A stretch of 64,000 nucleotides of DNA. It comes from Eledone cirrhosa (Eukaryota). Shown here one piece after another: positions 47,971 to 48,572 of the stretch; position 1 is the stretch's first letter, and each line of letters begins with the position of its first letter. A program made the translations under genes and the position numbers. The DNA is taken from contig OZ024740.1 of NCBI GenBank assembly GCA_964016885.1, forward strand, positions 105,400,001-105,464,000, read 5' to 3'. The notes under the pieces are model-generated. The model did not search any database. It saw only the letters and a list, made by a program, of their open reading frames with translations, and had not been told where the DNA came from.

Positions 47971-48572
47971 CATGTGCCGTGGTGGCCTCTTTGTCAGCAA
48001 TATTTGCCGCACGTTTTTACCACCGTCGTAAAAAAGCCCTTCTGGATTATCTCCCTTTCCCTTCTCCTCACTTTTGGTTGCCCGTGTATCTTTCTCACTT
48101 CCTCCTGTCTATGCGGGAGGTAGCACGATTATACCAGCTCTGAGTTCATACCTGACCACCAGGCTAAAGTCTCCCAGGCTGGCCACAACTTACTTTGCCT
48201 ATTTTTCGACGGTTACTTTTTTGCATGTTTCTTTCACCTGTGTCTTCCCACGATGGGATCTGCACACTTTTTTCTTCTATTCCTTTCCTATTTTCCCCTT
48301 CTTCCTCTCTCCTCACCCCCCCCTGTTCTTCCTCCTTTTCCTCTCTTTCCTTTTCTCTCTCCTTTTCCACCTGGCCTTTTGATTAATAAAAGGCCTCGGG
48401 CGCACCCGAACAACACCGATGTCCTGTAATTCAGCGCCGAAACATCGGTTCGGGATACATTTACAGCTGACGATGGAAACTCCTTTCTTCCTTTCTCCCC
48501 CTGTTACGCCCCAACCACCATCCTAAACCTTGTTTTTAGAAACCACACAGCTCCTTTAGTTTCATAACTTTT

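What the first reader, a model, noticed from the sequence alone, without database searches (positions are those of the whole stretch)
48405..48476. Second, sequence-unrelated family with the same C-B-A hammerhead and a canonical GUC site
Seen: cccga-acaac-accgaug-UC-cuguaa-uucagcg-cc-GAAA-caucggu-ucggg-auacau-uuacag-CUGACGA-u-gg. It has a perfect 7-bp stem III plus a 5-bp extension beyond a 5-nt bulge, a 6-bp stem I, a 2-bp G-C stem II and a complete core. The helices share no sequence with family X, but the strand order, the upstream CT-rich tract and the (TA)n context are the same, which argues against chance. An alternative pairing, ucagc (48431-48435) with gcuga (48466-48470), would sequester the core and could act as a switch (inference).
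Basis: partly seen in the sequence, partly recalled or inferred. Interest (0 to 1): 0.93.

Follow-up and report, generated by a model that had tools for sequence, protein, structure and literature searches.

The report
Rewired hammerhead ribozyme in animal retroelements
A small mobile DNA repeat in this animal genome carries a self-cutting "hammerhead" RNA whose strands come in a scrambled, knotted order, and the same fold appears to sit unrecognised in Naiad jumping genes, which were reported to lack such an RNA; cutting has not yet been tested.

Summary
The motif is real. It has a full hammerhead core in the non-circular order site-GAAA-CUGAnGA ("type SGC", Eckert 2023, not found there in any cellular genome). 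It lies in a 788-nt non-coding repeat that inserts in (TA)n with Penelope-like signatures. The lineage has 559 exact core copies in G000, and 10,960 with relatives.

Stem II's 5' strand comes from upstream (48399-48403). The bases after CUGACGA pair further upstream (helix IV), beside an 8-bp hairpin. The chain therefore enters and leaves the core between A9 and G10.1, a topology I found in no searched paper.

Family X is linked to this family through intermediates, so it is not unrelated, and the proposed switch is not conserved. By eye, 9 of 54 published Naiad consensi carry this fold and 6 carry type CSG, although Naiads are reported to lack canonical hammerheads.

Cleavage, expression and the mobilising reverse transcriptase are not shown. 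Verdict: new variant of a known kind, high interest.

The parts
47970..48575 (+). 5'-truncated copy (unit positions ~160-788 plus the T-rich end) of a 788-nt non-coding repeat unit ('family Y'), inserted between (TA)n tracts
   Evidence: longest Met-ORF on the sense strand of the unit is 69 aa
48364..48369 (+). Helix IV, 5' strand (UUUCCA); pairs with 48474-48479 and closes the ribozyme between A9 and G10.1
   Evidence: found by RNAfold unaided; first pair A-U in 2 and U-A in 11 of 14 Y/Y2 copies, outer two pairs kept in only 3-4 of 14; G-C to U-A change in X/Z
48373..48395 (+). Hairpin V, 8 bp (48373-48380 with 48388-48395)
   Evidence: 97.3% of cells paired in Y/Y2; 4 of 7 pairs with two-sided change in X/Z
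48399..48403 (+). Stem II 5' strand (GGCGC), supplied from upstream; G48399 would be G10.1
48405..48411 (+).
   Evidence: 4 of 6 pairs with two-sided change in X/Z; same place and single-A linker as the 'I' helix of HRIMA-1
48415..48429 (+). Block S: stem III 3' strand 48415-48421, U16.1 = 48422, predicted cleavage after C17 = 48423 (GUC), stem I 3' strand 48424-48429
48434..48454 (+). Block G: stem II 3' strand GCGCC 48434-48438, GAAA 48439-48442, stem III 5' strand 48443-48449, bridging-helix 3' strand 48450-48454
48461..48473 (+). Block C: stem I 5' strand 48461-48466 and core CUGACGA 48467-48473 (C3 to A9)
   Evidence: 559 exact G+C block matches in G000, control 0
48474..48479 (+).
48480..48575 (+). 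3' tail; copies end in two classes about 40-45 nt apart and run into (TA)n or into the next unit
51430..52878 (-). Family X: one partial and two full head-to-tail units with three ribozyme copies of the same layout (cores start at 52806, 52172, 51504)
2959..3143 (+). Truncated family X copy with a damaged core, ending in (TA)n

Best explanation
The stretch is the self-cleaving ribozyme of a non-autonomous Penelope-like element (a non-LTR retrozyme), probably derived from the 3' UTR of a Naiad. SHOWN (sequence and covariation): a six-helix fold is under selection. Strand order is IV - hairpin V - stem II 5' strand - bridging helix - S - G - C - IV. This is the type-SGC ring of Eckert 2023 opened at a new place, between A9 and G10.1, where other hammerheads tolerate one bulged base; helix IV and hairpin V are inserted there and carry the RNA's 5' and 3' ends. 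SHOWN: fixed 3' ends in two classes, scattered 5' ends, partial-plus-full tandems, inverted 5' pieces, (TA)n targets, no protein. INFERRED: the fold builds the normal hammerhead core in one molecule and cuts after C48423. Tandem copies would release a ~790-nt unit RNA, linear or circularised. A PLE reverse transcriptase-endonuclease supplied in trans nicks (TA)n, starts about 100-150 nt downstream of the cut site, and copies round the circle or along an uncut multimer.
For: Order and core. Covariation in 14 X/Z relatives: 96.3% of cells paired, 13 of 21 pairs with two-sided change, 0 of 500 shuffles as high, slid controls 29-49%; with IV and V, 93.9% and 18 of 33, slid controls 24-49%. RNAfold finds IV and V unaided, z -2.26. 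Of 117 pattern matches in G000 loci, 99 have stems I and III in SGC order, against 0 of 118 chance matches in metagenomes. HRIMA-1 rows show the same modules: a UUCA linker, a 5-nt stem II strand, one purine, then the bridging helix. By eye, 9 of 54 Naiad consensi (6 distinct families) have all six helices in different sequence, and in 5 of the 6 the bases after the core cannot pair with C11.1 while the upstream G can. An S-G-C motif lies in the shared 3' UTR of decayed Naiad-like copies in G000, 82 of 96 cells paired. Element behaviour: of 116 Y segments, 100 reach the 3' end, 69 then enter TA and 28 the next unit; the two end classes match the PLE 'tail' (PMC11167929 passages).
Against: No cleavage data and no RNA evidence. 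Within Y/Y2 alone covariation is thin: 1 of 17 and 2 of 31 pairs, and helix IV is 6 bp only in the young Y subfamily, 66.7% of cells. Three of the four upstream stem II pairs never vary in X/Z, were part of my search pattern and hold a CG step, so one position carries the test there. The X/Z rows were chosen by me for diversity and are related, which inflates shuffle tests. The flexible tests for IV and V are often met by chance (62 and 30 of 118). 5' ends show no pile-up at the cut site, 2 of 79 within 638-648; this fits a circle but equally an uncut RNA. No open reading frame was linked to X or Y in 40 loci fetched for that purpose or in 50 GIY-YIG loci. The Naiad-like copies found in G000 are decayed, their motif differs in sequence from X/Y, and an HMM of X or Y did not hit them. 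The Naiad consensi were read by eye, not scored.
Confidence: 0.7

Rival explanations
1. The fold is real and selected, but it cuts poorly or only in trans, in dimers or with a protein. Its main role is a recognition or packaging signal for the PLE protein, and tandems come from uncut multimeric RNA.
For: Metazoan PLE hammerheads show low activity and work as dimers (PMC4209133 passages). For one Poseidon element, cleavage was not needed for insertion in vitro and no reads began at the cut site (PMC11167929 passages). No 5'-end pile-up here. A strand break with two helices at 9/10.1 has not been tested in any paper I found.
Against: All core bases are kept across lineages whose helices have been rewritten, and the cut site stays N-U-H in nearly all copies. 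Stem III is 4-7 bp with no palindromic loop, unlike dimer-acting minimal hammerheads. The closest tested relatives, types SGC and CSG, cut in cis at 0.004-0.19 per min.
Confidence: 0.15
2. One reading: a plain type-SGC hammerhead whose 2-bp stem II is made by G48475-G48476 with C48437-C48438. The upstream helices would be an inactive alternative state that acts as a switch.
For: An extra base followed by GG is conserved after the core in X, Y and Z. It looks like the 'extra U, then G10.1' of HRIMA-1 and of PLE hammerheads. In X, one pair between position 11.1 and a base after the core is possible in most copies.
Against: 33% of cells paired and no covariation in X/Z. Duplex energy -0.5 against -8.4 kcal/mol. 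The same GG is explained by helix IV, which covaries. In 5 of 6 Naiad families the bases after the core cannot pair with C11.1 (by eye).
Confidence: 0.1
3. A chance arrangement multiplied by copying of a repeat, with no selection on RNA structure.
For: High copy number alone proves nothing, the young Y copies are 97-99% identical over the motif, and related sequences inflate shuffle controls.
Against: 0 SGC hits in 40 shuffled windows. Two-sided changes in every helix across subfamilies, with slid controls at half the pairing. 0 of 118 metagenome chance matches have the stems.
Confidence: 0.03

Closest known systems
Type-SGC hammerhead ribozymes (HRIMA-1 and variants; Eckert et al. 2023, PMC10085705)
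   Same: Order site - GAAA - CUGAnGA; full core; 3-4 nt linker from stem I to stem II (UUCA in both this copy and many HRIMA-1 rows); 5-nt stem II strand followed by one purine and a helix that bridges stems I and II; pseudoknotted core.
   Different: There the stem II 5' strand follows the core directly, which the paper assumes must hold ('block C'); here it comes from the 5' side and helices IV and V occupy the 9/10.1 junction. There none of the SGC RNAs was found in a genome of a known organism; here the fold is in about 11,000 copies of an animal retroelement. Those were shown to cleave; this has not been tested.
Non-LTR retrozymes of animals (Cervera and de la Pena 2020, PMC7229834; Li, Clavereau and Pollet 2026 preprint, 10.64898/2026.07.22.740005)
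   Same: Non-coding repeat with one hammerhead per unit, as monomers and short tandems, low GC, proposed to move with PLE machinery.
   Different: They are defined by a type I hammerhead and searched with type I descriptors, which cannot see this order. The unit here is 788 nt and C/T-rich; circular RNA is not shown.
Naiad Penelope-like elements (Craig et al. 2021, PMC8557442)
   Same: (TA)n targets, partial tandems, inverted 5' pieces, 30-40 bp tail. By eye, 9 of 54 consensi carry the same six-helix fold near the 3' end, and the region upstream of the core in Naiad_Ovul resembles X/Z in sequence.
   Different: This element has no ORF. The paper reports no canonical hammerhead in Naiads, only 'core' and 'half core' notes. 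No young Naiad was found in G000, so the present helper may be another PLE clade.
Canonical and minimal type I hammerheads of PLE pseudo-LTRs (Cervera and de la Pena 2014, PMC4209133)
   Same: Position near the 3' end of a PLE-type unit; an extra base after A9. One type I family in this genome has the same 14 bases from the core onward as family X.
   Different: Three-way junction without pseudoknots, short palindromic stem III, dimeric action. The C-terminal GIY-YIG elements of G000 that showed a motif nearby showed this canonical order.

Membership tests
Hammerhead ribozyme | Core CUGAnGA, GAAA and N-U-H | tested here: met
   CUGACGA 48467-48473, GAAA 48439-48442, GUC 48421-48423
Hammerhead ribozyme | Stems I, II and III abutting the core, supported by covariation | tested here: met
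   X/Z, strong; Y/Y2, weak alone; stem II only through the upstream strand
Hammerhead ribozyme | Site-specific self-cleavage | not testable with these tools
   needs a transcription assay
Hammerhead types I-III (Rfam) | Circularly permuted, pseudoknot-free core; Rfam gathering score | tested here: not met
   order S-G-C; 0 Rfam matches
Type-SGC hammerhead (Eckert 2023) | Block order S, G, C | tested here: met
Type-SGC hammerhead (Eckert 2023) | Helix bridging the free strands of stems I and II | tested here: met
   48405-48409 with 48450-48454; 4 of 6 pairs covary in X/Z
Type-SGC hammerhead (Eckert 2023) | Stem II 5' strand directly after CUGAnGA (intact block C) | tested here: not met
   33% paired, no covariation; upstream strand preferred. 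It works like type SGC but is not filed as a member.
Non-LTR retrozyme | Non-coding dispersed or tandem unit with one hammerhead per unit | tested here: met
Non-LTR retrozyme | Type I hammerhead | tested here: not met
Non-LTR retrozyme | Expressed as circular RNA | not testable with these tools
   no RNA holder listed
Penelope-like element (non-autonomous) | Fixed 3' end with optional tail, 5' truncation, partial tandems, inverted 5' pieces | tested here: met
Naiad clade | ORF with N-terminal GIY-YIG, CxC motif and RT, linked to this 3' end | tested here: inconclusive
   no linked ORF found; only decayed Naiad-like RT fragments in G000; link rests on the shared fold and a by-eye resemblance
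Naiad clade | (TA)n insertion preference | tested here: met
   69 of 100 3' ends enter a TA run; not unique to Naiads

The most novel reading that the evidence does not exclude
An active hammerhead of a new topology, in which the chain enters and leaves the catalytic core through a fourth helix between A9 and G10.1. It is one of several openings of a single 'reverse' ring: this form in cnidarian, ostracod and cephalopod Naiads, type CSG in nematode Naiads. Naiad retrotransposons then do not lack hammerheads; they carry non-circularly permuted ones across animal phyla. Their non-coding derivatives are an overlooked class of retrozymes with over ten thousand copies in one genome.
Probability: 0.6. 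Interest if true: 0.93.

Novelty: new variant of a known kind. Interest (0 to 1): 0.87.

Why it matters
Non-circular permutations of a ribozyme were known only from a few metatranscriptome RNAs and one bacterial candidate (PMC10085705). This would put them in animal genomes in large numbers and break the rule used to count the six possible permutations. It makes a stated puzzle directly testable: Naiads 'lack canonical hammerheads' yet proliferate (PMC8557442). Their published consensi appear to hold permuted ones that the descriptors could not match. Surveys of genomic ribozymes and retrozymes that use type I descriptors would be undercounting. A core that tolerates two helices at 9/10.1 would also be a new insertion point for ribozyme switch design.

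Tried and rejected
Parent search, no success. The top PF01541 hits in G000 (150 scored of 10,595 candidates; 30 loci plus 20 long-ORF regions read) were C-terminal GIY-YIG PLEs. SGC copies beside two of them (L127, L128) were separate (TA)n insertions. Forty loci round diverse X/Y/Z copies showed no linked ORF; the intact 1277-aa PLE in L200 has its own type I hammerhead and is separated from the Y2 copy by (TA)n and another element.

A 24-nt Naiad_Ovul motif and a GIPMGT pattern gave 0 matches in G000. HMMs of X and Y did not hit the 47 Naiad-remnant loci. Pfam gave 0 families for 7 window ORF fragments.

Sequencing runs: no RNA holder listed. The three runs laid were contigs of one sample and showed only family variation: three sites in 48399-48479 at 10% or more, at 48412, 48449 and 48456.

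The mixed X+Y MAFFT alignment put block S out of register by three columns, so it was not used for pair counts. The bridging helix was left out of the Y/Y2 counts because of indels. A canonical fold made from blocks of neighbouring tandem units was considered; it needs a loop of about 700 nt and does not explain the covarying bridging helix.

PMC4509812 (variant hammerheads) is not held and Lunse 2017 was seen only as a reference, so a precedent for extra helices in the core there cannot be excluded. Passages of PMC10162972 gave nothing relevant.

Full report
OBSERVATION. A scan of both strands for the three hammerhead blocks in any order gave one hit in the window at stems I>=4, II>=2, III>=4: this one. 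Forty shuffled windows gave 2 weaker hits, none in this order. Rfam finds nothing. That paper validated SGC and CSG ribozymes, and states that apart from one bacterial GCS candidate none was found in the genome of a known organism.

THE ELEMENT. The window lies in a 3.0-Gb genome, G000. Its repeats suggest an animal, probably a cephalopod mollusc (inference from Naiad-like fragments). The motif belongs to a 788-nt unit ('Y') with no sense-strand Met-ORF over 69 aa. Among 116 distinct segments in 90 loci, 100 reach the unit's 3' end; 69 of these run into (TA)n and 28 into the start of another unit. The 79 truncated 5' ends are scattered, with 2 within five bases of the predicted cut. These loci were the best-scoring hits of three searches, not a random sample. 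Inverted 5' pieces occur, for example in L016, L017, L022, L028 and L054. 3' ends fall in two classes about 40-45 nt apart, in Y (about 54-65 and 97-105 nt after the core) and in X (15-17 and 55-67). This matches the PLE 'tail', which arises from two internal reverse-transcription starts (PMC11167929, passages). The Y lineage has 559 exact matches to its G and C blocks. A pattern common to X and Y has 10,960 matches, control 0, mostly X.

X AND Y ARE PROBABLY KIN. Excluding typical X left 377 matches; of the 100 listed I counted 63 Y, 12 of an older Y2 subfamily, 2 intermediates ('Z') and 23 X variants. Pairwise BLAST links Y-Y2 (73-79%), Y2-Z (65%), Z-Z (67%), Z-X (64-73%) and X-X (some of these matches are C/T-rich). 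CGCACC, GCG, the core and a G after it are invariant in 16 representatives, though the first three were in the search pattern.

THE FOLD IS LARGER THAN REPORTED. The bases after the core, 48474-48479, pair with 48364-48369 (helix IV), and an 8-bp hairpin V lies between that strand and GGCGC. RNAfold finds IV and V unaided (z -2.26). In 14 X/Z sequences the four inner helices are 96.3% paired with two-sided changes at 13 of 21 pairs, 0 of 500 shuffles as high, slid controls 29-49%. With IV and V the figures are 93.9% and 18 of 33. Against this: within Y/Y2 alone only 1 of 17 and 2 of 31 pairs change on both sides, and IV is 6 bp only in young Y. The upstream stem II has one variable position in X/Z (U-A 12, A-U 1, G-C 1). 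I chose the rows for diversity and they are related. As a control, 99 of 117 pattern matches in G000 loci have stems I and III in SGC order against 0 of 118 metagenome chance matches; the loose tests for IV and V pass often by chance, 62 and 30 of 118. The proposed UCAGC/GCUGA switch is absent from Y2 and X.

WHAT THE TOPOLOGY IS. HRIMA-1 rows read: site, stem I strand, UUCA, 5-nt stem II strand, GAAA, stem III strand, bridging-helix strand, stem I strand, core, extra U, 5-nt stem II strand, one purine, bridging-helix strand. Y has the same modules, but the last three sit at the 5' end. It is the SGC ring opened between A9 and G10.1, with helices IV and V placed in the opening. One extra base at this junction is natural and tolerated in a viroid hammerhead (PMC3705267, passages) and common in PLE hammerheads (PMC4209133, passages), which makes slack here plausible. 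That two helices are tolerated is inference. Eckert et al. assumed that this junction cannot be interrupted.

LINK TO NAIADS. Craig et al. 2021 (PMC8557442; passages, supplement parts 1, 24, 25 and search hits) report that Naiads target (TA)n and lack canonical hammerheads; 10 carry a 'core' note and 8 a 'half core' note. I read by eye the passages round every CUGAUGA, CUGACGA and CUGAGGA in their Naiad file and only some CUGAAGA. Of 54 consensi, 9 show all six helices: Naiad_Obim and _Ovul; _Amil, _Aacu and _Anas; and four records near file parts 9, 12 (two) and 19, which I could not name with certainty. These are six distinct families with IV of 4-8 bp, V of 5-8 bp and stem II of 4-6 bp. In five of the six, C11.1 can pair only with the upstream G. 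Two more are weaker (the record near part 8, stem I 2 bp; Naiad_Esco). One near part 16 has SGC order with a hairpin before GAAA. Six, including Naiad-1, -2 and -3_Nbra, are clean type CSG, which is the same ring opened after stem III. In the other 36 I saw nothing I could parse; these were not scored by a program. In G000 itself, a Naiad-like RT motif led to 93 matches, most with stop codons. The shared 3' UTR of 8 such copies holds an S-G-C motif with 5-bp stem III and 7-bp stem I, 82 of 96 cells paired against 5-50 when slid. Its core is UUGAUAA in 2 of 8, which would be a U3-A8 swap of the C3-G8 pair (recalled), and decayed in the rest; 13 exact matches to its S and G blocks remain. It differs in sequence from X/Y, so it supports 'Naiad 3' UTRs use this order' and not direct parentage.

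THE HELPER IS NOT FOUND. No ORF was linked to X or Y. Intact PLEs of other clades exist in G000 and carry canonical type I motifs. One such family shares 14 bases from the core onward with X, a hint of origin by rearrangement or of shared host machinery, not tested.

MECHANISM. Shown: a conserved six-helix fold with an intact core, and PLE-type insertion anatomy. Inferred: cis cleavage after C48423; release of a unit-length RNA, perhaps circularised as for other animal retrozymes (PMC7229834, passages; preprint 10.64898/2026.07.22.740005, parts 1-2 of 5); internal priming by a PLE enzyme at (TA)n; copying for more than one unit. The main rival is a fold that cuts weakly and serves as a protein-binding signal. 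PLE hammerheads are often slow, and cleavage was dispensable in vitro for one element.

NOVELTY. Eight paper searches returned no report of a non-circularly permuted hammerhead in a retroelement or animal genome, or of a core opened at 9/10.1. The library lacks most subscription papers, PMC4509812 was not held, and the 2026 preprint's supplements were not looked at. A 2026 paper still cites only Eckert 2023 and two others for unusual variants (PMC13725137, passages and references). PMC3088659 (passages) lists single-base core insertions and stem I-II pseudoknots. The scan's own notes held nothing on this sequence or genome; one search gave leads in other genomes that I did not check. Verdict: a real, selected structure; a new variant of a known kind; interest 0.87; confidence in the full model 0.7.

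Noticed in passing
File S5 of PMC8557442: Six Naiad consensi, three named from Nippostrongylus, hold clean type-CSG hammerheads (stems I 4-6, II 5, III 5-11 bp). Only two natural CSG sequences were reported by Eckert 2023.
   Followed up: partly
L219:1005-1100 and homologues (alignment A6): Decayed Naiad-like 3' UTR with an S-G-C motif, a hairpin before GAAA and a core reading UUGAUAA in 2 of 8 copies; 13 exact S+G block matches in G000.
   Followed up: partly
L200:1619-5449 (-): Apparently intact 1277-aa PLE ORF (DKS motif, C-terminal GIY-YIG, Asn-rich insert) with pseudo-LTRs and its own type I hammerhead; a candidate active helper.
   Followed up: partly
window 22684-24825 (+) and 54998-56129 (+): Broken PLE ORFs (DKT/DKT-like motif; the first ends in a C-terminal GIY-YIG-like region), resembling the Hydra clade; the second lies within inverted repeats 53445-54553 / 57879-58990 / 59043-60153.
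   Followed up: no
window 4552-6042 (-) and about 6150-6330 (-): PLE ORF fragments, and nearby a canonical type I hammerhead family whose 14 bases from the core onward equal those of family X.
   Followed up: partly
window 49870-50968 (-): Two tandem ~525-nt units with a type I-order hammerhead-like motif (10-bp stem III from a palindrome); relatives in L004, L017, L020.
   Followed up: no
window 21602-21690 (+): A weak type I-order hammerhead-like hit (score 10), possibly chance.
   Followed up: no
window 48676-49200 (+): Fragment resembling the C-terminal part of a CR1/L2 LINE ORF2 (recalled resemblance; no Pfam hit), next to the element but not part of it.
   Followed up: no
window 36414-38212: 1.8-kb (TAG)n-type trinucleotide array, about 600 copies.
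   Followed up: no
G000:C1:43918139-43924210: Nine head-to-tail family X units about 750 nt apart, the longest array seen.
   Followed up: no
listing, e.g. G000:C1:52390701-52391489: A further Y-lineage subfamily with a different sequence after stem III, also in tandems; useful for more covariation.
   Followed up: no
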